Shown here: piece by piece, positions 14,944 through 49,609 of the stretch
Layout: every line of letters begins with the position of its first letter
Position numbering within the stretch: the first letter of the stretch is position 1
DNA from: Laetmonice hystrix
Taxonomy: Eukaryota
DNA length: 60,000 bases
NCBI GenBank assembly: GCA_965235115.1
Contig: OZ249436.1
Location: 9,178,001-9,238,000, forward strand
Reading direction: 5' to 3'
Program-made: the position numbers and the translations under genes
The notes under the pieces: model-generated
The model's input: only the letters and a program-made list of their open reading frames with translations
Told to the model about the DNA's origin: nothing
Databases searched by the model: none

Positions 14944-15447
14944 GAGCCCCTGGTCGTGACACTCACACAAACACACAAACATCATGTTGTCGGAGGCGGT
15001 CTGTTTTCGTCACAATAACTGCGCCGCGAGCCCCTGGTCGTGACACTCACACAAACACACAAACATCATGTTGTCGGAGGCGGTCTGTTTTCGTCACAAT
15101 AACTGCGCCGCGAGCCCCTGGTCGTGACACTCACACAAACACACAAACATCGTGTTGTCGGAGGCGGTCTGTTTTCGTCACAATAACTGCGCCGCGAGCC
15201 CCTGGTCGTGACACTCACACAAACACACAAACATCGTGTTGTCGGAGGCGGTCTGTTTTCGTCACAATAACTGCGCCGCGAGCCCCTGGTCGTGACACTC
15301 ACACAAACACACAAACATCATGTTGTCGGAGGCGGTCTGTTTTCGTCACAATAACTGCGCCGTGAGCCCCTAGTCGTGGCACTCACACAAACACACAAAC
15401 ATCATGTTGTCGGAGGCGGTCTGTTTTCGTCACAATAACTGCGCCGC
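14944..15447. repeat. 84-bp tandem repeat x6 spanning the Gv stop codon and proximal 3' UTR
   Basis: Unit starts at 14944, 15028, 15112, 15196, 15280, 15364; on the minus strand each unit carries (G/A)CGGCGCAGTTATTGTGA (AAQLL* in most copies). Confidence 0.95.
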
Positions 15448-15620
15448 CTCGAGATTTTCTTTGATGATGGTGTGCATAACGACCTGGAAGACAACCTGGA
15501 TGTTGGACGTGTCAGTGGCCGTCGTGAAGTGAGGGTAAACCACTTTACCAACGTTATTCACCTGTCTCAGGAACAACATCTGGATAAAGATGGCGGCTGA
15601 GTCGACGTCATAGTCAGCAC
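15430..15620 (-). CDS. gnav: Gv alpha exon 9 ([10 protein letters not shown]...HFTTATD...ENLEAAQLL*)
   Basis: GGCAG acceptor at 15621, G5 motif TTAT, TGA at 15430-15432; 191 nt. Confidence 0.95.
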
Positions 15621-18600
15621 CTGCCAAATATTGAGGGGGATTATTTAAGTTTATCAAGGAGCCAGGATCTAACATAGTCAGCACCTGCCAAATATTGAGG
15701 GGGATTAATTTAATTTATTAAGGAGTCAGGATCTAACATAGTCAGCACCTGCCAAATATTGAGGGGGGATTATTCAAGTTTATCAAGGAGCCAGGATCTA
15801 ACATAGTCAGCACCTGCCAAATATTGAGGGGTGGGAGGGGGATTATTTAAGTTTATCAAGGAGCCAGGATCTAACGTGATAAGACCTGGTTGAAACAGAC
15901 AGTGAGGAACATGCAATGTTTGATAACCTCATGCAGGACACTGGGACACGGAGTCAGAAAGTGAAGTCTGTGGGGTCAGCTCCTTCTCCCCGTCATGAAT
16001 AAGAATGGATGGTAAGGACCTTATTTACCCTACGGGATACTGGGGACCTGTCCCTTCACGGGCCCCATCTGGAGCGTGGTGGGGGAAGGGGCAAAGGTTA
16101 GCAATATGACCAGCAAGGTCAGTAAGACACGGTTAAAGTAGGACCTTGCGGGTAAAGTTGTGACGCCGCACGGGTGGGCATGATTGGCTAATCAATATTG
16201 ATCACCAATCGATTCAATATTAACCAGGGACCTGGCACCTTCGTGGGTGTTCAACGACCTACTTCTAATAACTACCCCACCTTACCTTTGGTAACGAAAA
16301 AATTAAACCACATATATCTTATTACTAGAGCTTTGATACAAAAATACACTCAAAAGTATCATATTATTCTCTTACAGCCTTACAACACTTGACTTCGGCA
16401 TGGAAATTCATAGAACCAATAGATAGAATAGGGAGCCTACAGTCCCCCACCCCCTTGAGAACTAATATAGGCGGCAATTAACTTCTACGCCTCCAATATT
16501 TAGAAAGACGTACCTGTGAAATGTGAGAAGTAATAGCGGAGATGACGGCCTGAGGTTAATATCTTCTCCCGGAACAAGTCCAGCTTGTTCAGAAACAGAA
16601 TCTGAAATACAAAAGGTTCAGGTTGTTATCAGGATCCTATTTCCACTTTCATTTATATAGCACTCCACCATCGCAGTAATCACCTCACGGAAATTTGATA
16701 TTGACCGTAAATTAACATAATTGTATACATAAATATATAATATACGTCGCTTAGGAATATGGAAACAAAAACAGTAAGATAGAAACAACGGTGACATATA
16801 GCAGTCAAATCAAAACACTGCACAGTCTGGTAATACAAGTACGAGAGCTTTGGCACCAGTCTGATTTAACTACACAGTTCCTTGAGATACAAGTACGAGA
16901 GCTTCATCACCAGTCTGATTTAGCTACACAGTTCCTTGAGATACAAGTACGAGAGCTTCATCACCAGTCTGATTTAGCTACATGTGTACAGTTCCTTGAG
17001 ATACAAGTACGAGAGCTTCATCACCAGTCTGATTTAGCTACACAGTTCCTTGAGATACAAGTACGAGAGCTTCATCACCAGTCTGATTTAACTACACAGT
17101 TCCTTGAGATACAAGTACGAGAGCTTCATCACCAGTCTGATTGAGCTACACAGTTCCTTGAGATACAAGTACGAGAGCTTCATCACCAGTCTGATTTAGC
17201 TACATGTGTACAGTTCCTTGAGATACAAGTACGAGAGCTTTGGCACCAGTCTGATTTAGCTACACAGTTCCTTGAGATACAAGTACGAGAGCTTCATCAC
17301 CAGTCTGATTTAGCTACACAGTTCCTTGAGATACAAGTACGAGAGCTTCATCACCAGTCTGATTTAGCTACATGTGTACAGTTCCTTGAGATACAAGCAC
17401 GAGAGCTTCATCACCAGTCTGATTGAGCTACATGTGTACAGTTCCTTGAGATACAAGCACGAGAGCTTCATCACCAGTCTGATTTAGCTACACAGTTCTT
17501 TGAGATACAAGTACGAGAGCTTCATCACCAGTCTGATTTAGCTACACAGTTCCTTGAGATACAAGCACGAGAGCTTCATCACCAGTCTGATTTAGCTACA
17601 TAGTTCCTTGAGATACAAGTACGAGAGCTTCATCACCAGTCTGATTTAGCTACATGTGTACAGTTCCTTGAGATACAAGTACGAGAGCTTCATCACCAGT
17701 CTGATTTAGCTACACAGTTCCTTGAGATACAAGTACGAGAGCTTCGTCACCAACTGATTTAGCTACATAGTTCCTTGAGATACAAGTACGAGAGCTTCAT
17801 CACCAGTCTGATTTAGCTACACAGTTCCTTGAGATACAAGTACGAGAGCTTCATCACCAGTCTGATTTAGCTACACAGTTCCTTGAGATACAAGTACGAG
17901 AGCTTCATCACCAGTCTGATTTAGCTACACAGTTCCTTGAGATACAAGTACGAGAGCTTCATCACCAGTCTGATTTAGCTACACAGTTCCTTGAAATCAC
18001 ATTAGTGCGCTAATCAAAAAGGGACATGAACGCTAGAAACAGGTAACTAACGTTCTTGTGTGTGACGGATATACTTGTGTATACCGTCACAGTATATCGG
18101 TCACACACACAACAGGTAACTAACGTTCTTGTGTGTGACGGATATACTTGTGTATACCGTCACAGTATATCGGTCACACACACAACAGGTAACTAACGTT
18201 CTTGTGTGTGGCGGATATACTTGTGTATACCGTCACAGTATATCGGTCACACACAACAGGTAACTAACGTTCTTGTGTGTGACGGATATATACGCAAGTA
18301 ATTTGAAACTTCTCTCGCCAACTGCCAGACAATATCGGTAATATACGGTAGGCTCGGGGTATTGCTTCTCACCCATACCGCAGGGAAATACTATAGTATT
18401 GCTGTCCGTATGCCATACAGTGTGTGCCACATCTACTTTCACATCACTGACCTGCCAATGCTATCTTACACAGAGAATCCAGCTCACCAACCTTGGGCAC
18501 TGCCACAGTCAAACCTATAGAGTGGTCTACTCATTTTTCTTTCTTTTTTAGTTCTGATTTCATCAACATTCCAAGGGCACGGGACAGACGTTACCATGGC

Positions 18601-21600
18601 AACAGAACGAAACAGTCAAAGGCTGGCGTCCGAAGTCACCTGGAAGGACTGGCGGCCTGTGGTGGGCCTGGTGGTGCACATCACTGATCTGAGAGCATCT
18701 GGCCTCCGTAATTACTGTCAGTGACTGGGTCCTGTGAAGTTACCCGCTCAATGGTGAAGGACACATGATAGTGGAAGCGAGGGAAATGAAAACTAGACCG
18801 TGGCAGCATGTTCGTTAATATGTTCGTTATACTTACTATAGAGGTATCATTGAAGAACTTGGTGTTAACAATTTGCTGGAATAGCTTTAGACTCTCCTCC
18901 AAGCGGTTCTGAAAGAAAATGATGGATTATGATTAAAATATTCATCTCTTAGACGCAAAAAGGAAAGTAAACGAATACTTATTCATCAAATTGTCTATGC
19001 CATCTAAAATCGGTACAGCGTAAATTATCTCGTTATTTTCAATCAGTGCTCCCTATATAGGCCTATTTATGTGAGTGAGAGACAATGCAATACCAAATGG
19101 CGTTCTTTTCATTGTTAGAAGAAATTTTATCCACAAGTCATATTAAAATTTTTCATACTTCAAATCCAATTAACAAGATAACCAACCGTTGCATCCAATT
19201 TTAGGCTTCATCCGATTTCAATAATTCACTAAAAATCCCCGATAGGTTACACCCGCTTAACACTGAACTGCCTTGCAATCTTTAAATTTTGAAATGTTTT
19301 TTTAACGTGGCGGGGAAGCCCTGCACTGTGGCCTGAGTGTGTGTGGGCGTGACTACCCCCCCCCCCCCCCCCCCCGATGATTTGGGAGGAGTTCGTACCA
19401 CTGACGGGTCCTCAAACAGCGTCATGTCGTATCCACTGAGTGCCGTCACAAACAATAGCGCTCGCACGTCATCAAAACATTGGATCCACTTCCGACGCTC
19501 TGAGCGCTGGCCTCCCACGTCAAACATTCTGTTAACATATCAAACCTCAAACTTGACTACAATAGGGTTAGGGTCAATGGTCACACTTACAACACTTACT
19601 GGCCTCCCACGTCAAACATTCTGTTAACATATCAAAACCTCAAACTTGACTACAATAGGGTTAGGGTCAATGGTCACACTTACAACACTTACTGGTCTCC
19701 CACGTCAAACATTCTGTTAACATATCAAAACCTCAAACTTGACTACAATAGGGTTAGGGTCAATGGTCACACTTACAACACTTACTGGCCTCCCACGTCA
19801 AACATTCTGTTAACATATCAAACTCGACTACAATAGGTGGGCAATGGTCACACTTACAACACATACTGGTCTCCCACGTCAAACATTCTGTTAACATATC
19901 AGACCTCAAACCTGACTACCATATAGGGTTAGGGTCAGTGGTCACACTAATTACATCACTTACATCTGGGCACAGATCAAATATGGCTTAGACTTCAGTA
20001 TTACCAATCTTCTATAGCAGTTAATGCACTGCTTGAAAGGATTTTCAGTTGTCTCGAAGGGCTAAGGTACGTTACCTGAATATGATGAAGGGCTAAGGTA
20101 CATTACCTGAATATGATGAAGGGCTAAGGTACATTACCTGAATATGATGAAGGGCTAAGGTACATTACCTGAATATGATGAAGGGCTAAGGTACATTACC
20201 TGAATATGATGCCATTTATTTTGAAGCACGTTTCAATGATGCTTGTCGTCCGAATTCGAGCCCTCAGCACATCTGCTTGAGTAGGTCTGAACTTTTCCGA
20301 GCATATCCGGTCCATATGGTTGAAATAACTACAACAGCAAATGGTACAACGCATGAAGCTCAACGACACATGATTTCAGAGAAAAACACTTGAATAACTA
20401 CAACAGGAAATGGTACAACGCATGAAGCTCAAAGACACATGATTTCAGACAAAAACACTTGAATAACTACAACAGGAAATGGTACAACGCATGAAGCTCA
20501 AAGACACATGATTTCAGACAAAAACACTTGAATAACTACAACAGGAAATGGTACAACGCATGAAGCTCAAAGACACATGATTTCAGACAAAAACACTTGA
20601 ATAACTACAACAGGAAATGGTACAACGCATGAAGCTCAAAGACACATGATTTCAGACAAAAACACTTGAATAACTACAACAGGAAATGGTACAACGCATG
20701 AAGCTCAAAGACACATGATTTCAGACAAAAACACTTGAATAACTACAACATCAAATGGTACTACGCATGAAGCTCAAGGACACATGATTTCATACAAAAA
20801 CACTTGAACTGAAGGGCTTCTTTATTGGGAAATACCAACTTTTTTTTAAATAGCTCAAATGTTAAAAACGATTCTTTTTATTGTAAAAAATGCAAGTAAC
20901 AATAGCTACATTGGTCCTTGCCCACACTCCAGAGGGGGAAATATTCTGGCTAAATTAGATGATAAAATAAGATGGAGATAATGAATGTATTTCCTGAATG
21001 ATCAGTCAGAATCATAATTCAGTCCGGCTATATAGATAGAGGCAGCTAGACAATACATTATGTCCATTAATGATCATTAGCGGCACAGTTGTAATCCATA
21101 CAACTCCCACCAGACCATTAATACGGCACTGTCAGCTAGTAATTCCTTCCCGATAAACCTCATCAATCCTGATAGTTTAAATGGCTTAAAACTTGTTTTA
21201 TCCATGTTGCTTTACAGATGAAGCCCTCCCTCTTTACTTGTCTTAATAATTCATCATTTCCCAAAAAGATTTGTTTCAAATGGCCTGACAAATTGTGACT
21301 TGTGTATAACTTATACAAGGAAACCCCATTATGCAATGACAATTAAATGTATCTTCAGACTACACGGGATACGCCACCGTGTTCTACAGACATAATACAA
21401 CAGTCATCAGCGTGAAGCGCCAGACGTGCATGATAACACCCAGAATCAACGCTCGTCTGAGGTCTGATTAAAATGCTATAGCCCACGTCCATACGGTCTA
21501 TTGCACGTATACGGCTGGCCTCCGTTCACCAACACCTCATCGTCCCAGGCCATGGCCTCATCACTTCTACTTATCACCGGCTCTGGCACTCAAAATATCC

Positions 21601-23505: not shown

Positions 23506-26500
23506 CCCTGCCACATCGCTTGCCAGAATGAGAATGGCCGGCGTTCATTATTATTATGCATAACACCCCGCGATCAATACCTGGCTCGACGGTGCTGACG
23601 CCTGGTGCCACGCAACACAACTACACTGATTAAACAGTATTGATCTTTCGAGCCCAATTCGAGAACCACTCGACGTTTGTTAAAGCATTATTGCCTTTAC
23701 GTGGCACGTATCCAGACTATGAGTTTGAAATACATTACGGTTAATCCTTGTACTGACCATAAGGCAGCCATGATTCTACGCTCATTACCATGAGGTGGGG
23801 GTGGGGGTGGGGTCCTGAACCAAAACCCACACGCTCGGGAAAACCTAATGAATGGAGCCGTACCCTGTAACTAAGAACCCCTTGGTGTATGAAGGCAATG
23901 TTAGTGGTCGTAACGGGGGAACAGAAATCGCTGAATCGGCAAGATTTATTTGCTCACATTCAGCCAATGCAAATCTTTGTGGATTTAAATTCATTGAATT
24001 TTGCTGTTTGTGACATCAGGTTTTTATACCATTGATTTACTCTACATCCCCTGTAACATAAGAAAATTAAAGAAAAACTTACTACACAGCCGAGTCATTG
24101 AGTTCATACTCGTATCCTCTGTCGACAGCCAGTCGTATGCCCTGATCGTTCCACAAACACTTGAGGGCGTTAAAGATGAACGGCAGCATGATCTGTTCTT
24201 CGTCATAACATCGCTGGCAGGCCAACACCGTCTGAGCATGGAGCTGAAGTCCAAAAAATACACCATGGAAACGTTAATACACATGTATATGCCAACACCG
24301 TCTGAGCATGGAGCTGAAGTCCACAAAATACACCATGGAAACGTTAATATACCAACACCGTCTGAGCATGGAGCTGAAGTCCACAAAATACACCATGGAA
24401 ACGTTAATACACATGTATATACCAACACCGTCTGAGCATGGAGCTGAAGTCCACAAAATACACCATGGAAACGTTAATACACATGTATATGCCAACACCG
24501 TCTGAGCATGGAGCTGAAGTCCACAAAATACACCATGGAAACGTTAATACACATGTATATGCCAACACCGTCTGAGCCTGGAGCTGAAGTCCACAAAATA
24601 CACCATGGAAACGTTAATACACATGTATATGCCAACACCGTCTGAGCATGGAGCTGAAGTCCACAAAATACACCATGGAAACGTTAATATATGCCAACAC
24701 CGTCTGAGCATGGAGCTGAAGTCCACAAAATACACCATGGAAACGTTAATATATGCCAACACCGTCTGAGCATGGAGCTGAAGTCCACAAAATACACCAT
24801 GGAAACGTTAATACACATGTATATGCCAACACCGTCTGAGCATGGAGCTGAAGTCCACAAAATACACCATGGAAACGTTAATATATGCCGACACCGGCTG
24901 AGCATGGCGCTGAAGTCCACAAAATACACCATGGAAACGTTAATATATACCGAGGTATATACGAAACACTGAAATGTCACGTTGAAATTAAAGATATCCA
25001 TCAATTACATACATCTAGTTTGGATTCACTAGCTGTGTCTCGTGTCCGAGAGAGGGCAATAGGCCTAGTGAACCTGGCGGAAAGTTAAACAAATCTGCCC
25101 CTCCTCCGGTTTAATCAACATACTTCAAGGTTTCAAGGTAACTTCAGTTGTATTCATGTTTAAATTAAAGAACTGTGGCGTATCTGATCCTTTAAGTGTA
25201 AATCCTATAATCATTTAATGGTGATTGTGTTGTGGTCTGGAATCACGAGGGACACTTTCCACCAACTCGCTGCGCGCCATCTATATCAGGTAGTTAGTTG
25301 TTCAGCTAGCCGCCAGATGGCAGCGCTCCAACCTGTATGTCCACTTTCATGTAGGCCTGAAAGATATGGCCACTGGCCAGACTCAGAGCGATCTAAGAGC
25401 GAGTCGGTAACACCGGCTGACATCAAAGAAATGATAATGAATGTTACGGATGCTGTAAAGGCACCCCCCCTACTATCCCCAGGAGAAACAACTCCATATT
25501 TCCCCGACCACTCCGGGTTATTCCCCCATGGTAACTTTCAGACAAAATTTTGGGTATAGGTTCGGGTTAAGGTCAGGGATAGGGATAGGATATAGGCGGG
25601 GTATGCTTTTGGGTGGGACTGGGATTAGGGGTTAGGGATAAGGTCGGGGCTATGGATCTTTACTTTCGGCGACCAAATTTCGTGGGGTCTAAGTTACCAC
25701 GGGGGATGTACCCGACGCCGGTCCTGTCTCATGCACCGACTGACCTTGTTCTTTGGGTTGTCGAGGTTGATACGGAGGAGCCCCATACCATTCAGTACGT
25801 ACTTCATGGACGACAACAGGTTCTCGATCACCGTTGTCTGAAAATATATCATTTATCACGGTTATAATACAAGGTACGAAATACAGTCAATTGTGTCATA
25901 GCTTCATCAAAACAAACCTGAAACAACCGCGGATCCAGCACTGCATGAAAGGGGGGCGCTCTTTTAGGGCTCAAGGCGAAAGTGCGCGGGGGGGGGGGGC
26001 TCCCTCCAGTGTTTTTTTTTTTAATTTAGAAGGCAAAAAAAGGAAAAACACGCTGTTTCCCGGCAGCTGGAGGTAGAAATTGTGACAGAAATGAAAATGT
26101 TCGCCTACAAATTATATTTTTCACTTCTTCAAAATAAAGAGGGGGGGGGGGGGGGGCTGCGCGCCTCCCCCTTTATTCGAGCCTGTGAAAATGGTCATTC
26201 ATTTATTTCTTTCACTGTCGCATGTAGTATCTGTAACATGTGTAGACAAAAATAAGAACACGCAGCAGCATTTACATGTTACTACTGTCATTGCTCCATT
26301 TCATTTCAGCTGCATGGACACTCTCCAAGTTCTATTCCATAACACATCATTCTCCATTTCATTTCAGCTGGATACTCTCCAAGTTCTATTCCATAACACA
26401 TCATTCTCTATTTCATTTCAGCTGGAAACTCTCCAAGTTCTATACCATAACACATCATTCTCTATTTCATTTCAGCTGGGCACTCTCCAAGTTCTATTCC

Positions 26501-41500: not shown

Positions 41501-44500
41501 GACTTACTCTGAAACTGGCCAGTTCGTCCTCAGTGAAGCCGTGACTGTGGATAATCTTCATCTGTTTAACCAGCGTGCTCTTCCCGGACTCTCCGGCTCC
41601 TGAGTGACAAAATCAAATCATATACTCACAAAATTCATACTCATAAAATTCAAATCAACAATTCAGCTGAGACTCCCACCCCCTCAAACAGTTATAGGGT
41701 TTCTATCTACACTATACAGGATGACCACAAAAATTTCAATTTCAAACTCCCCGTGTTTTCCCTGCAGGGAATTTACTTTTGTCATTTTCCCTGTTTTCCC
41801 TGTGCTGTGGTCACCCTGACACTAACATCGTATCTATAACTTCTACGTACTATGTGACACGTTTCCGAAGATTCTGAATTAATTAAGAGAATGTTGGGAA
41901 GTTAGTAGTATGTCATATATCGTTGTTTTTCTTTCTTTCTTTTCTACTTAAACCGTGGGCCATATTTCCCTTTGTTTTTCTTTGTTTCTATTTAGTAAGG
42001 CCAGAAGAGTATTATGTCAATGGTTGATGTGGAGTCCTCTGCCCCCAAGCAGTACTCAATCAAAGAAACGCTTGGATAAACACACTACTTTTTATCAGAA
42101 GTTGTGGCAGAGAAGTTCCGCCGTAAACCATAAAGCAGAATGCCCTGAGCATTATGACATGTCATAACTACATGTCTTTCTCTGACGAAAAACCTGCACA
42201 TTATATTGATTTGTTCCCTAAAGTTGGACATTAATCTTCACGGAGTTGTCATTTTAAGGATTCGAAATTAACTTTTATGGACATAAGACTGGAATAAGCC
42301 GTACTAATAACAATAGAAAAACGAGATTAAAATGTCTGTTAAAAGGACCTAATCAATACCTCATATACAGTTATCTAAAGATCATGTGTAAATAACCTCT
42401 AGTCCTCAGATCTTTAACCCTGACTTGCACTGAAATGGTTTTACATGTACCATCATATCTCGATACTTGAATAAAACTCCTTGGCCGGCATCTACAAATT
42501 TATTCGTATTATATTTATTCTCTATCAATAATTAAAGTAAGGATATAGGGATGCATAGCCTTTCGTGTGCAGCCTTAATTAATTCACAAAGTCATTGTTT
42601 CTGTTTCTGACCAAAAAAAGTGATACAAATCAATGGCCATTGAAATTTGCCCTTCAAAGTTAAAGAAGTTTCAAAGGCATTGTTTCCTGGTACACGTGAA
42701 CAATAACACAGCACTATGGTATGGAAAACCTATTCATGTATATAGTCCACTACAACAATAGTTTCTACTTAGAGGAACTTTCTCATTTCATGAAGAATTT
42801 TGAAAATGTAAGATAACATACGAGAACATCACATCTGCTGATCGATCTATTCAGTTTCAGCAAAACTAATCAATTTTTATAGATTTTGAGTCAACTGATT
42901 ATTGGGTGTTTGCGTTTGTTCATGTACAGAGACATAATAACGCATCAACCGCAGCAAGCATTTATTTGAATACACAGAGGCTATGGATTTTATGTCTAAC
43001 TAGGGCACACACTGCAAACACCCACAGCTGATAGTTCAAAAGGCAATGAGACAGGACAAATGTTTATCTTCTGACTAAGGGTGCACTAAACATGTACTGG
43101 TATTCATCATTCATGGATTAAAGCGTTTTAAATGGGTCATGATGGCGGCACAGCGGTTGTGGCATTCTCTGGCGAGTAGAACCATGACGTTTATTCAGTA
43201 CAGGTGACTTCCTATTGTCACCTCAACTTCATATCTCTGAGGGCGTGTCACATCATACAGGGGCCATCGTTTTCCATGCATCTCCCCTCACATCAATGTG
43301 TGCTAACTTTGTGTTCCAGGATATGCATGGCTTTAGCCAAGGACAATGACCGCTTTCTTGGTACTTATCCCTCCTAACCCAGGCTATGGTTCATTCTCAT
43401 GTTTCCCATTAAAAAGTCCAGGAAGGACTGAATGTTAGAAAAACCATCTTCCTGTGACCCGGCCTCTGTCACGTGCGGGTTGCTGATGCCAGCGATGGCT
43501 GCGCGCCAAGTCTGGGGCTGGCGTGGTTGGTGGGTCTGGTGGATGAGGCCCACAGCCGGCGTGGTTGGTGGGTCTGGTGGATGAGGCCCACAGCCAGCAT
43601 CTATTCTCTGTGACAATGTGTCCTCAGACCATCACCATCATTATGACAACCACCCAGGGACGCCCTGGCAAGGTGAGTTAGGCTAAGATGTGCTCCGGCT
43701 CTGTGCATGCCCCCGTATGGTTGACGAGATATGAGTCACACACACTCGGAGAGTTATTAATGAGGATGGACAACTACTAACTAACTATGGAAAGAGAGCT
43801 GTTCTGATCTCTGCCTCTGGACACGGATATACGATCTAACGAAAACAAGGGGGTGAACTCTAACCGAGTAGCAGGCCCAACATGTCCTGAAACCATTAAG
43901 GCATTTATATCCAAGATTTCGATATAATTGGTTTGTGAAAGGGGAAAAACTGATAGGAAAACTGAAAAGGGGGAAAACTGATGGGAAAACTGATTTCAAT
44001 GATTGTGAAAGGGGGAAAACTGATAGGAAAACTGATTTCAATGATTGTGAAAGGGGGAAAACTGATAGGAAAACTGATTTCAATGATTGTGAAAGGGGGA
44101 AAACTGATAGGAAAACTGATTTCAATGATTGTGAAAGGGGGAAAACTGATAGGAAAACTGATTTCAATGATTGTGAAAGGGGGAAACTGAAAGGTTACTG
44201 ATCCACTGCTGCACCAATATCTAAACGGAAACCAAACGAATATTTAATGAAAAGCCGGATCTTTGATATCAGTTCTCGATCCACTTTAAACAGTTTGGGA
44301 ATGTTTATATACTTATACCCTTCTCGTGTCGCTTAAACAAAACCAAAACTTCCTGTCACAACACTCAACAACTGGATGTCATATCAGGATTTACATGTCT
44401 AAGTCATGCCAAATGATATCAGAAGTCAGCCTTCCCGTTCAGTGTGCATTGGGTTTAACATTTCACGTCATGAGTGTTGGTACCCCGGTCTGAACACCAG

Positions 44501-47500: not shown

Positions 47501-49609
47501 AGGCAGGCTGTCTGACCTCTCCAGGATCCCTCACTGGAGGCAGACTATCTGATCTCTCCAGGATCCCTTACTGGAGGCAGACTATCTGACCTCTCCAGGA
47601 TCCCTCACTGGAGGCAGACTATCTGATCTCTCCAGGATCCCTTACTGGAGGCAGGCTATCTGATCTCTCCAGGAGCCTTCACTGGAGGCAGGCTATCTGA
47701 CCTCTCCGGGATCCCTCACTGGAGGCAGGCTATCCGATCTCTCCGGGATCCCTCACTGGAGGCAGGCTATCTGATCTCTCCAGGATCCCTCACTGGAGGC
47801 AGGCTATCTGATCTCTCCAGGATCCCTTACTGGAGGCAGACTATCTGACCTCTCCAGGATCCCTCACTGGAGGCAGACTATCTGATCTCTCCAGGATCCC
47901 TTACTGGAGGCAGGCTATCTGATCTCTCCAGGATCTCTCACTGGAGGCGGGCTATCTGACCTCTCCAGGATCCCTTACTGGAGGCAGGCTGTCTGACCTC
48001 TTCAAGATCCCTGACTGGAGGCAGGCTGTCTGATCTCTCCAGGATCCCTCACTGGAGGCAGGCTATCTGATCTCTCCAGGATCCCTCACTGGAGGCAGGC
48101 TATCTAATCTCTCCAGGTGCCTTCACTGGAGGCAGGCTATCCGATCTCTCCGGGATCCCTTACTGGAGGCAGGCTATACCTCTCCAGGATCCACCTGCCT
48201 GGAGGCATACAGTATCTAGCTGGGGGTACATCTGTCTCAATTCCATGAAATACGTGTCTTTCAGGGAATCCCCAAGCTGGGTATTTTAAAATACTTGTGA
48301 CACACTGGTGGTACAAATGATGTAATTAGTTGCACTCTTACTTTGGTGACTGGACTTAATAAACCTCAGTGAATATCAAAATCTGAATAATCACTAATAC
48401 CTTGCACTATAAGTACAGAAAGCTGCCAACTTGCAAAGGGATAATTCTAAATTGCGCGCGCAAGGTCACATCCAGCTGTGCACCTTGCGGTGACAGAGTG
48501 TATATAGTTCCTGGTATTGATCCAACATATGTTCAGGTATGGAGCTTTATGCCTGCCAAATAATTCACCAATACGCCATTGTAAACACCTGAATATATAA
48601 CAACGGGATATTCATTTAGTTTGTATTTTATACCTCTTTGCAATTGTGTTCTACTCTCTTGCCTAATTATAGCATAATCTCACTTGGAAACAATACACCT
48701 GTCGGAGCACCTGATACAATCAGTATGGTTCACTAATACAACCCCGACATTGTGCCACTGTCTGACACTATCTGGCATAATGCGCATAGTTCACCTCCTT
48801 TGGTGCACTATAAATCACGCCATACACCAACCGGCATGTCACCACCTATATGTATACACTGACAGAATAGACTTATCTAGGATGATCATCTAACTAGAGA
48901 GGCATTCTAGGAATTCTTGTCATTGTGGAGTCGCAATAAAGACCACCTATTCACCTAGCCTTGTCACGGCTTTTTCATCTGCATTATCAAGCCATTATGA
49001 TCTCAAAATCCTTTGAGAATTAGGGTCTAATATGGCTTACTTGGACGGCAGGCGACAGACAATAAGAGACAACCAACTGTGTCTGCATGCAACTGATGAC
49101 AGTATACGTAAATGTTTTATGTTACCTGGCGGAATACCTGGAAATCAGGCAACCGTACGCGTCGGTGAGTAATTCAAACACGGAAAGTGAAGACCATGAA
49201 TCAATGTTACCTGTGTTGTGAAGATACACCTACAGCGCACAATGCAAGTTATCAAACTATATCCTTTCTCAATAAATAAACCGGTCTATCAAACAAGTAA
49301 GTCCTCATGGGGTGTGGGGGGTTGTGGGGGTGGGGGGTGGTCCATAAGTCGGTGTTGGGGGAGACAGCCTGATAATCATACTTTTATCAATTACTTATTT
49401 TAATCAATTAACGCTTTCCTTATATCCTTGAAAGTACTTGAAATAGAGTGAGATTAAGTTTTCAGACTAGGAGATTTGATCTTACCCAGCAGTAGAATCT
49501 TGATGATGCCATTCTCTTGCTGTGCCAGGTACTGCAGTTTCCGATCAATGTCGTCGCTGCGAGCTCTTGACTTTCTCTCTTCATTGTCCAAACTGAGGCA
49601 TGCTCCCAT
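15430..49609 (-). CDS. gnav: Heterotrimeric G protein alpha subunit, Gv class; 9 coding exons, 359 aa
   Basis: Joined exons give [63 protein letters not shown]...[11 protein letters not shown]...[12 protein letters not shown]...FLNKLD...[33 protein letters not shown]. All G1-G5 motifs are present. [49 protein letters not shown] and IIKENLEA match Gv (fish gnav1) sequence as I recall it. Exon lengths 124+92+93+161+129+130+72+88+191 = 1080 nt. Confidence 0.95.
15609..15875. repeat. ~64-bp tandem repeat x4 spanning the exon 9 acceptor
   Basis: catagtcagcacctgccaaatattgagggg at 15609, 15673, 15737, 15802. Confidence 0.95.
16514..16601 (-). CDS. gnav: Gv alpha exon 8 ([30 protein letters not shown])
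   Basis: TTTCAG acceptor, G|GTACGT donor, 88 nt; NKxD G4 motif. Confidence 0.95.
16832..17995. repeat. 54/58-bp minisatellite x~21 (intron 7)
   Basis: gagatacaagtacgagagcttcatcaccagtctgatttagctacacagttcctt tandem, with +TGTA-type variants. Confidence 0.95.
18038..18290. repeat. 73-bp tandem repeat x3.5 with internal hairpin
   Basis: Unit contains tgtgacgg-atatac-ttgt-gtata-ccgtcaca inverted repeat. Confidence 0.9.
18837..18908 (-). CDS. gnav: Gv alpha exon 7 ([24 protein letters not shown])
   Basis: TTTCAG acceptor, GTAAGT donor, 72 nt. Confidence 0.94.
19399..19528 (-). CDS. gnav: Gv alpha exon 6 ([21 protein letters not shown]...FEDPSV), switch II
   Basis: AACAG acceptor, GTACGA donor, 130 nt; DVGGQ G3 motif; matches ORF 19282..19527. 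Confidence 0.96.
19507..19948. repeat. ~92-bp tandem repeat x5 spanning the exon 6 acceptor
   Basis: ctgg(c/t)ctcccacgtcaaacattctgttaacatatc repeated five times; one shortened 81-bp unit. Confidence 0.95.
20056..20210. repeat. 31-bp tandem repeat x5 spanning the exon 5 donor
   Basis: gaagggctaaggtac(a/g)ttacctgaatatgat x5. Confidence 0.95.
20200..20328 (-). CDS. gnav: Gv alpha exon 5 ([43 protein letters not shown]), switch I
   Basis: TTGTAG acceptor, AG|GTAATG donor, 129 nt; G2 motif with catalytic Arg. Confidence 0.94.
20324..20808. repeat. 69-bp tandem repeat x7 spanning the exon 5 acceptor
   Basis: aataactacaaca...gatttcagacaaaaacacttg with 69-bp period. Confidence 0.95.
23431..23504. 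repeat. (CAG)n microsatellite, interrupted, in intron 4
   Basis: Two CAG runs separated by gcc. Confidence 0.95.
24083..24243 (-). CDS. gnav: Gv alpha exon 4 ([17 protein letters not shown]...[12 protein letters not shown])
   Basis: TTCAG acceptor, GTAAGT donor, 161 nt; LWxDxG and EYELNDSA motifs. Confidence 0.94.
24221..24950. repeat. 60-70-bp tandem repeat x11 spanning the exon 4 acceptor
   Basis: ccaacaccgtctgagcatggagctgaagtccacaaaatacaccatggaaacgttaata repeated 11 times. Confidence 0.95.
25745..25837 (-). CDS. gnav: Gv alpha exon 3 ([31 protein letters not shown])
   Basis: TTTTCAG acceptor, GTCAGT donor, 93 nt, phase 0-0, helical-domain sequence. Confidence 0.93.
26297..26727. repeat. 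54-bp minisatellite x~8
   Basis: catttcatttcagctggatactctccaagttctattccataacacatcattctc tandem. Confidence 0.92.
27667..28232. repeat. 20-bp minisatellite x~28
   Basis: acgg(t/c)cagttactgttata(a/c) tandem. Confidence 0.95.
28362..28590. repeat. ~78-bp tandem repeat x3
   Basis: ggaaacgttgccggtgagactccttgcgact...cagccatggcaat x3. Confidence 0.88.
29650..29736. mobile_element. Tiny Harbinger-like MITE
   Basis: taa|aggcggactc...gagtccgcct|taa (TAA direct flanks). Confidence 0.65.
32284..35583. repeat. 58-63-bp satellite array, ~3.3 kb (~53 copies), intron 2
   Basis: gaataacgttcacaagatgagctaacgtttggtaggtttgtttatgttatggtgaaagccctt tandem. Confidence 0.97.
38072..38281. repeat. ~87-bp local duplication (2 copies)
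   Basis: cattctctggttggtgtcagtattctctgacatcaccac...caggactcagct twice. Confidence 0.85.
41508..41599 (-). CDS. gnav: Gv alpha exon 2 ([31 protein letters not shown])
   Basis: CAG acceptor at 41600, GTAAGT donor at 41507, P-loop GAGESGKS; 92 nt. Confidence 0.95.
41717..41818. mobile_element. Short hAT-like MITE near the exon 2 acceptor
   Basis: caggatgaccaca / tgtggtcaccctg TIR; flanks acactata / acactaac (imperfect 8-bp TSD). Confidence 0.65.
43933..44190. repeat. 42-bp minisatellite x~6
   Basis: ttgtgaaagggggaaaactgataggaaaactgatttcaatga tandem. Confidence 0.9.
44457..44608. repeat. ~40-52-bp tandem repeat x3
   Basis: aacatttcacgtcatgagtgttggtaccccggtctgaacaccag x3. Confidence 0.88.
47205..48208. 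repeat. 37-bp minisatellite x~27 (intron 1)
   Basis: actggaggcaggctatctgatctctccaggatccctc tandem. Confidence 0.95.
49486..49609 (-). CDS. gnav: Gv alpha exon 1 (MGACLS...KILLL-G), phase 1 end
   Basis: ATG at 49609; donor G|GTAAG at 49485; N-terminal MGxC lipidation motif and KILLLG lead-in to the P-loop. Confidence 0.93.

What the first reader, a model, noticed from the sequence alone, without database searches (positions are those of the whole stretch)
20241..20243. Natural Gly->Ser at the RGS-sensitivity position of switch I (RTTSIIE)
Seen: codon AGC gives R-I-R-T-T-S-I-I-E (Ser186, five residues after catalytic Arg181). Established: the aligned residue is Gly in Gi/o/q (Gi1 G183, Go G184, Gq G188), and its G->S substitution is the standard RGS-insensitive mutation. 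I recall fish Gv having TTG here. The other motifs ([21 protein letters not shown]) are intact, so the gene does not look decayed. Inference: this Gv may be naturally resistant to RGS GAPs and signal for longer.
Basis: partly seen in the sequence, partly recalled or inferred. Interest (0 to 1): 0.75.

Follow-up and report, generated by a model that had tools for sequence, protein, structure and literature searches.

The report
Worm-lineage G-alpha-v with RGS-blocking serine
An intact signalling-switch gene (G-alpha-v) in a marine-invertebrate-type lineage naturally carries the same glycine-to-serine change that, in lab mutants and a human patient, stops the switch's normal off-accelerators (RGS proteins) from binding, and related changes recur elsewhere in this little-studied protein class.

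Summary
Confirmed, on the minus strand. Window 20243-20241 (AGC) is Ser186 of an intact nine-exon, 359-aa G-alpha-v (Gv) gene and aligns to Gi1 Gly183. It is the only Gv found in this lophotrochozoan genome. It is very unlikely to be an assembly error. Two unnamed, intron-free Gv records, about 73% identical to it, also have Ser (AGC in the one whose DNA was seen). All three form one clade (100/97) with the Ser column removed. The other 149 Gv sequences that cover the site have Gly. Reads did not cover the exon. In published work G-to-S abolishes RGS binding by Go, so RGS resistance is likely (about 0.8) but untested in any Gv. Whether it lengthens signalling relative to other Gv is less clear. 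Gv repeatedly alters neighbouring RGS contacts: the T182 site changes 12 times on the tree, and insects carry T182N/Q plus E207Q, a change that also abolishes binding in Go. Best reading: the serine was tolerated because Gv is already loosely coupled to canonical RGS proteins. It is a new variant of a known class and makes Gv regulation directly testable.

The parts
20241..20243 (-). Codon AGC, Ser186, at the Gi1 Gly183 / Go Gly184 position of switch I
20256..20258 (-). Catalytic Arg181 (Gi1 Arg178)
49486..49609 (-). Gv exon 1 (start codon, N-terminal helix)
41508..41599 (-). Gv exon 2 (P-loop GAGESGKS); runs past the point where exon 2 of this genome's Gi ends
25745..25837 (-). Gv exon 3
24083..24243 (-). 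Gv exon 4
20200..20328 (-). Gv exon 5 (switch I, holds Ser186); single copy in the genome
19399..19528 (-). Gv exon 6 (DVGGQ, switch II; Ser209 and Glu210 Gi-like, Gln216 in place of Gi1 His213)
18837..18908 (-). Gv exon 7 (first half of the exon that GNAV splits in two)
16514..16601 (-). Gv exon 8 (NKLD)
15430..15620 (-). Gv exon 9 (TTAT, C-terminus, stop codon)

Best explanation
This is the animal's single working G-alpha-v. One GGY-to-AGY change in an ancestor put Ser at the switch-I glycine, and descendants kept it. SHOWN: gene intact, Ser shared by a clade, Gly elsewhere in Gv. INFERRED from mutants of other G-alpha: the Ser side chain keeps canonical RGS domains from docking on the transition state, so the protein still loads and hydrolyses GTP and couples to receptor and G-beta-gamma, but turns off at its own rate or through some non-RGS partner. 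INFERRED: the change was tolerated rather than selected, because Gv is already weakly tied to canonical RGS proteins, so signalling time may differ little from other Gv.
For: Gene intact and single. Ser shared with P0240 and P0269; same AGC codon in L031 although 65 of 98 four-fold sites differ from the window. One clade, 100/97, one change on a 54-row tree built without the Ser column. Go G184S shows no detectable RGS4 binding and is among the most impaired for RGS-driven deactivation. Loose RGS surface in Gv: the T182 site is T 107, N 23, S 11, Q 7, C 2, A 1, I 1, gap 1 of 153, with 12 changes on the tree against 0 at R181, R183, T184 and E189. Among 148 parsed exon hits, T182 is kept in 71 of 73 with K/P at the K180 site (Gi/o/q-like) but in 30 of 58 with R there (mostly Gv-like); Fisher p 2e-10, relatedness not corrected. 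All 19 E207Q carriers (16 named or clustered with insects) also lack T182, and E208Q abolishes RGS4 binding in Go. I184V occurs in 96 of 152, and Go I185V binds poorly. The genome keeps canonical-looking RGS domains, and its Gi, Go, Gq, Gs and G12 keep Gly, so this is specific to Gv and not a loss of the RGS system.
Against: Gly is kept in all 149 other Gv rows that cover the site, so the site is constrained; Gs and G12, which canonical RGS do not regulate, keep it too, so the cause of the constraint is unclear. In the window's protein T185, I187, S209 and E210 are all Gi-like, so Ser186 is its only strong RGS-breaking change. 18 of 152 Gv rows (Lingula, Branchiostoma, several echinoderms, a hemichordate, some molluscs, spiders) keep all five of these contacts, which fits an ancestrally RGS-competent Gv. 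H213Q alone barely matters in Gi1 (EC50 9 vs 5 nM). In plants the T-to-N change only weakens GAP action and does not track RGS loss. No biochemistry exists here, there is no read or RNA support from this individual, and the homologue set is fish-heavy with one named annelid.
Confidence: 0.5

Rival explanations
1. Lineage-specific escape. Ancestral Gv is switched off by canonical RGS proteins; the G-to-S change cut that link in this lineage, giving longer or more sensitive Gv signalling.
For: Ser186 is the only strong RGS-breaking change in the window's protein. Its nearest Gly-bearing rows by tree path, the two Lingula-type proteins, keep T, G, I, S, E. Gly is otherwise invariant in Gv. The same change prolongs signalling in Go and yeast Gpa1. 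Ser persisted across near-saturated synonymous divergence.
Against: Other Gv lineages shed RGS contacts in several independent ways, which looks like weak constraint. The Ser clade's branches sum to only about 0.57 changes per column, so keeping Ser does not show selection for it. I found no report of RGS action on any Gv.
Confidence: 0.3
2. The Ser form is still GAP-regulated: either Gv's switch I accommodates Ser, or a co-adapted RGS or a non-canonical GAP (an effector or an RGS-homology protein) serves it.
For: Plant G-alpha/RGS pairs tolerate a switch-I change once thought decisive. The genome search finds RGS exon by exon and is a lower bound, so a dedicated partner could be missed.
Against: G-to-S is used as the RGS-insensitive allele across Gi1/2/3, Go, Gz, Gq, G11, G14 and G15 (plasmid list and text). 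The three canonical-looking RGS domains inspected keep the usual E-[FY]-S-x-E-N and D-S-Y-x-R-F stretches (their role as the contact surface is recalled), and they must still serve Gly-bearing Gi/o/q.
Confidence: 0.15
3. Assembly error, rare allele or decaying gene.
For: One base from GGC. The exon is flanked by tandem arrays on both sides. The reads laid did not cover it, and no RNA run was listed.
Against: Independent intron-free records from other animals carry Ser in the same clade. The frame, splice sites and nucleotide-binding motifs are intact. The end branch (0.18) is not long. There is no second Gv or alternative Gly exon.
Confidence: 0.05

Closest known systems
G-alpha-v (Gv, GNAV/gnav1), the fifth G-alpha class
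   Same: Pfam G-alpha; groups among named gnav1 and invertebrate Gv proteins, up to 76% identity; nine coding exons with split exon 7/8 and shifted intron 2 as described in PMC5896119 (passages).
   Different: Ser in place of the switch-I Gly, seen in no Gv outside this clade (0 of 149).
RGS-insensitive alleles Gpa1 G302S, Go G184S, Gi1 G183S, Gq G188S; human GNAO1 G184S patient variant
   Same: Same position and same substitution (papers).
   Different: Those are engineered, selected or disease alleles of RGS-regulated classes. Here it is the apparent wild type of a lineage, in a class whose RGS regulation is untested.
Grass G-alpha T194N/N195 (rice RGA1)
   Same: A natural, lineage-wide switch-I change at the neighbouring residue that lowers RGS affinity (PMC3386157, passages). 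The same T-to-N occurs in 23 of 153 Gv.
   Different: Different residue, partial effect, disputed as the cause of RGS loss (PMC11061236, passages). Here RGS genes remain.
Gs and G12/13, naturally refractory to canonical RGS
   Same: Natural G-alpha that canonical RGS do not regulate; Gv often shares the Gs-type Gln at Gi1 His213 (46 of 153).
   Different: They block RGS by other residues (Gs D229, F208, Q236; G12 Lys) and keep the Gly. The window's Gv has Ser209 at the D229 site.

Membership tests
G-alpha subunit | G-alpha domain with P-loop, catalytic Arg and Gln, NKxD and TCAT-like motifs in one frame | tested here: met
G-alpha-v class | Falls among named Gv proteins, closer to them than to Gi/o/q/s/12 | tested here: met
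   59-76% identity to full-length Gv against about 44% or less to other full-length hits; trees. The trees held no Gi/o/q rows; Gi, Go, Gq, Gs and G12 are separate loci in the genome.
G-alpha-v class | GNAV exon structure: nine coding exons, exon 7 split, intron 2 shifted relative to GNAI | tested here: met
   against PMC5896119 passages; the genome's Gi exon 2 ends earlier
G-alpha-v class | Class-specific motifs as defined by Oka et al. 2009 | not testable with these tools
   paper not held
RGS-insensitive G-to-S allele | Ser at the Gi1 183 position | tested here: met
RGS-insensitive G-to-S allele | No RGS binding in GDP-AlF4 and no GAP acceleration | not testable with these tools
   needs purified protein
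RGS-insensitive G-to-S allele | The Gly form of the same protein is RGS-sensitive | not testable with these tools
   not reported for Gv in the searches made; comparative data are mixed
Fixed lineage trait (not error or rare allele) | Present in independent relatives as one clade | tested here: met
Fixed lineage trait (not error or rare allele) | Base confirmed in this individual's reads | tested here: inconclusive
   no contig covered the codon

The most novel reading that the evidence does not exclude
Gv is a further G-alpha class that runs largely without canonical RGS control, and several animal lineages have independently fixed known RGS-breaking changes in it: G183S in this lophotrochozoan clade, T182N/Q plus E207Q in insects, I184V in fish and many molluscs. 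In this clade the wild-type protein is a natural copy of the standard laboratory RGS-insensitive allele, which is a disease variant in human Go, and Gv's shut-off depends on intrinsic hydrolysis or an unknown GAP.
Probability: 0.4. Interest if true: 0.7.

Novelty: new variant of a known kind. Interest (0 to 1): 0.52.

Why it matters
Gv is the one G-alpha class whose receptors and effectors are undescribed (PMC11087313, passages), and I found nothing on how it is turned off. This lineage supplies a natural pair, Ser wild type against S186G, and orthologues with an intact Gi-like surface. One GAP assay on them would show whether Gv is an RGS substrate at all. It would also show whether a change that causes disease in human Go can be the normal state of an animal G-alpha. 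The limits: it is one residue in a little-studied class, non-Gly residues already occur in divergent G-alpha (6 of 150 hits, and a Gs-like paralogue in this genome), and no function is shown.

Tried and rejected
Reads: three runs of one sample hold the region, but their contigs touched only 20185-20211 and not the codon, so this is inconclusive. No RNA holder was listed, which says nothing about expression.

Homologue search with the 43-aa exon alone found nothing. An alignment query worked.

A metagenome scan with a degenerate pattern for the non-Gly motif gave one locus, L031, the DNA of P0269. It extends the clade no further and has no denominator.

A second Gv or a mutually exclusive Gly exon, as this genome's Go has, was looked for and not found.

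A single-sequence AlphaFold model of P0269 was useless (pLDDT 30.5). No complex prediction was sent: PMC12505447 notes that AlphaFold2-multimer models a Gs-RGS16 complex although RGS16 has no GAP activity on Gs, so a score could not decide the question.

Taxon: the erythrocruorin-linker search found nothing and its control was silent, so it is uninformative. Hox genes place the animal in Lophotrochozoa (Lox2, Lox4 and Lox5 signatures recalled).

Literature: Oka et al. 2009 was not held. The supplement of PMC5896119 gave no usable text and its tree files cannot be read; either could already show Ser in an annelid Gv alignment. Ten searches listed no paper on a natural G-to-S Gv or on RGS action on Gv; most listed papers were seen only as listings. 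The steric explanation of G-to-S is recalled; one search did not find a source for it.

Earlier scan findings: three look-ups returned nothing. Sixteen of 80 other open frames were scanned against Pfam with no match above cut-off.

Full report
OBSERVATION. The finding lies on the minus strand. Window 20243-20241 is AGC in the frame R-I-R-T-T-S-I-I-E. Nine exons between 49609 and 15430 give a 1080-nt frame with GT-AG at all eight introns and one terminal stop, 359 aa. The exon aligns without gaps to Gi1/Gi3 155-196 in PDB chains, which puts Ser186 on Gly183. The P-loop, DVGGQ, NKLD and TTAT are intact.

WHAT THE GENE IS. It is a G-alpha-v. It is 59-76% identical to full-length Gv proteins, many named gnav1. 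Its nine-exon layout, with split exon 7/8 and shifted intron 2, matches the GNAV structure described in PMC5896119 (passages). The genome (627 Mb, 35 contigs) has separate G12, Gs, Go, Gq and Gi loci plus two divergent G-alpha loci (class labels are mine, from motifs). No second Gv and no second copy of exon 5 was found. Hox genes with Lox2-, Lox4- and Lox5-type signatures (recalled) place the animal in Lophotrochozoa. Its Gv lies outside the supported mollusc, brachiopod and bryozoan groups. An annelid is my guess by exclusion and is not shown.

IS THE SERINE REAL? Reads did not settle it: three runs of one sample hold the region, but no contig covered the codon. Homologues did. Of the 120 best hits, 118 have Gly, 1 a gap and 1 Ser. 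The union and three cluster members gave 153 proteins after dropping P0166, a 606-aa row with a Gi-type switch I. Of these, 149 have Gly, 3 Ser and 1 a gap. The Ser rows are P0240, P0269 and P0270, unnamed JGI records; P0270 is a shorter copy of P0269, and P0240 and P0269 are 92% identical. L031, an intron-free contig encoding P0269, uses AGC as well. It is 259 of 357 residues identical to the window's protein, and 65 of 98 four-fold sites differ, so it is a distant animal. On a tree of 54 hand-picked rows (window plus 53 homologues; most fish, two outgroups and one long branch left out) with the Ser column removed, the three Ser sequences form one clade at 100/97, needing one change (SH-aLRT 92 on the 57-row quick tree). 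They also share other uncommon residues, such as T73, E77, D98, Q174 and Q357. An error or private allele would not be expected to match its nearest relatives. One old GGY-to-AGY change is the simplest account, though two origins within one lineage are not excluded. The only named annelid in the set, Owenia, has Gly.

WHAT THE SERINE SHOULD DO. G-to-S at this site is the standard RGS-insensitive allele across Gi, Go, Gz and Gq-family proteins (PMC7572916, passages). [quoted passage not shown] Gi1 G183S releases G-beta-gamma normally (PMC10996109, passages). The genome keeps RGS domains (9 matches). Three look canonical and keep the usual conserved stretches (contact role recalled). Its Gi, both Go exon variants, Gq, Gs and G12 keep Gly. 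So this Gv is probably a working switch that canonical RGS proteins cannot accelerate. I put that at about 0.8. It is inferred from other classes and not measured.

DOES IT CHANGE SIGNALLING? That needs Gly-bearing Gv to be RGS-regulated, and the comparative data make this doubtful. The residue before, Gi1 T182, sits at the centre of the RGS interface (PMC3386157, passages). In Gv it is T in 107 of 153 and changes 12 times on the tree, while R181, R183, T184 and E189 never change. Among 148 of 150 exon hits that could be parsed, T182 is kept in 71 of 73 Gi/o/q-like and 30 of 58 mostly Gv-like rows (grouping by the K180-site residue is a proxy, and kin are not independent). All 19 rows with Gln at Gi1 E207, mostly named insects, also lack T182; E208Q abolishes RGS4 binding in Go. 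Val at Gi1 I184 occurs in 96 of 152 Gv and in 0 of 73 Gi/o/q-like hits; Go I185V binds poorly. His213 is kept in 5 of 153, though H213Q alone is minor in Gi1 (PMC12505447, parts 1-2 of 6). In all, 126 of 152 carry at least one tested RGS-weakening change, in a fish-heavy set.

AGAINST THAT READING. Gly is unchanged in every other Gv row. The window's protein is Gi-like at T185, I187, S209 and E210. Eighteen of 152 rows across brachiopods, amphioxus, echinoderms, a hemichordate, molluscs and spiders keep all five contacts, so the ancestral surface looks RGS-compatible, and the Ser may be what cut the link in this lineage. The plant precedent warns against reading too much into one residue (PMC11061236, passages). 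Gly conservation is itself ambiguous, since Gs and G12 keep it without canonical RGS. Retention of Ser over branches summing to about 0.57 changes per column does not show selection.

COMPARISON WITH WHAT IS KNOWN. Membership of the Gv class is met on phylogeny and exon structure. It works like the G183S/G184S/G302S alleles by position and residue, but the defining biochemical test could not be run. The nearest natural parallel is the grass T-to-N change. Natural non-Gly residues also occur in divergent G-alpha: 6 of 150 exon hits, two of them Ser (unnamed, fungal- or protist-like by appearance), and Thr in this genome's Gs-like paralogue. Ten paper searches listed nothing on a natural Ser Gv or on RGS action on Gv. 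PMC11087313 has no occurrence of RGS, and the RGS passages of PMC5896119, PMC3971589 and PMC12716839 do not address Gv. Oka et al. 2009 and the Lokits supplements could not be read and might show the residue in an alignment.

VERDICT. A real, lineage-level natural copy of the RGS-insensitive substitution in an intact Gv. It is probably RGS-resistant. More likely it was tolerated in a class already loosely coupled to RGS (0.5) than an escape that lengthens signalling (0.3); still regulated 0.15; artefact 0.05. New variant of a known kind, interest 0.52.

Noticed in passing
window 24221-24948, 20324-20808, 20056-20211, 19507-19948, 15609-15875, 14944-15447: Minisatellite arrays end on 5 of 16 splice sites of the Gv gene and on its stop codon, copying bits of exon edge. 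Overlap alone is not above chance (28% of the gene is in arrays, P 0.49); overlap by array ends is (P 3e-5 on a rough model), but intact exons would stop arrays there anyway.
   Followed up: partly
window 19507-19948 (minus strand): Each of four upstream 93-bp-type repeat units copies the exon-6 acceptor and 21 nt of exon; three are followed by GTAAGT and one by GTATGT. They look like in-frame decoy micro-exons that would duplicate the DVGGQ motif if spliced in. No RNA evidence.
   Followed up: partly
G000:C21:3.69-3.70 Mb (L012, L025, L038): A divergent Gs-like G-alpha has Thr at the Gly183 site (RVMTNTIQK) and Gln at the Gs Asp229 site.
   Followed up: no
G000:C5:13.54 Mb (L013, L015, L019): A divergent G-alpha of unclear class with RKPTVGVHE in switch I and DVAGQ in switch II.
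   Followed up: no
G000:C7:18.561-18.562 Mb (L016, L021): The Go gene has two tandem versions of the switch-I exon, probably mutually exclusive, both with Gly.
   Followed up: no
P0251, P0257, P0264, P0265, P0278-P0280, P0286, P0290, P0291, P0294, P0295, P0297, P0299-P0301 and three unnamed rows: Insect Gv carries Gln at the Go E208 site, a change that abolishes RGS4 binding in Go, always together with Asn or Gln at the T182 site.
   Followed up: partly
G000:C4:22.89-22.93 Mb and C4:18.75-18.82 Mb: Two tandem runs of 10 or more homeobox matches with near-identical scores, spaced about 3-7 kb apart.
   Followed up: no
and one search hit names: Most invertebrate Gv proteins are labelled G(o) alpha or G(o)-like in public sources, which hides the class from name searches.
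   Followed up: no
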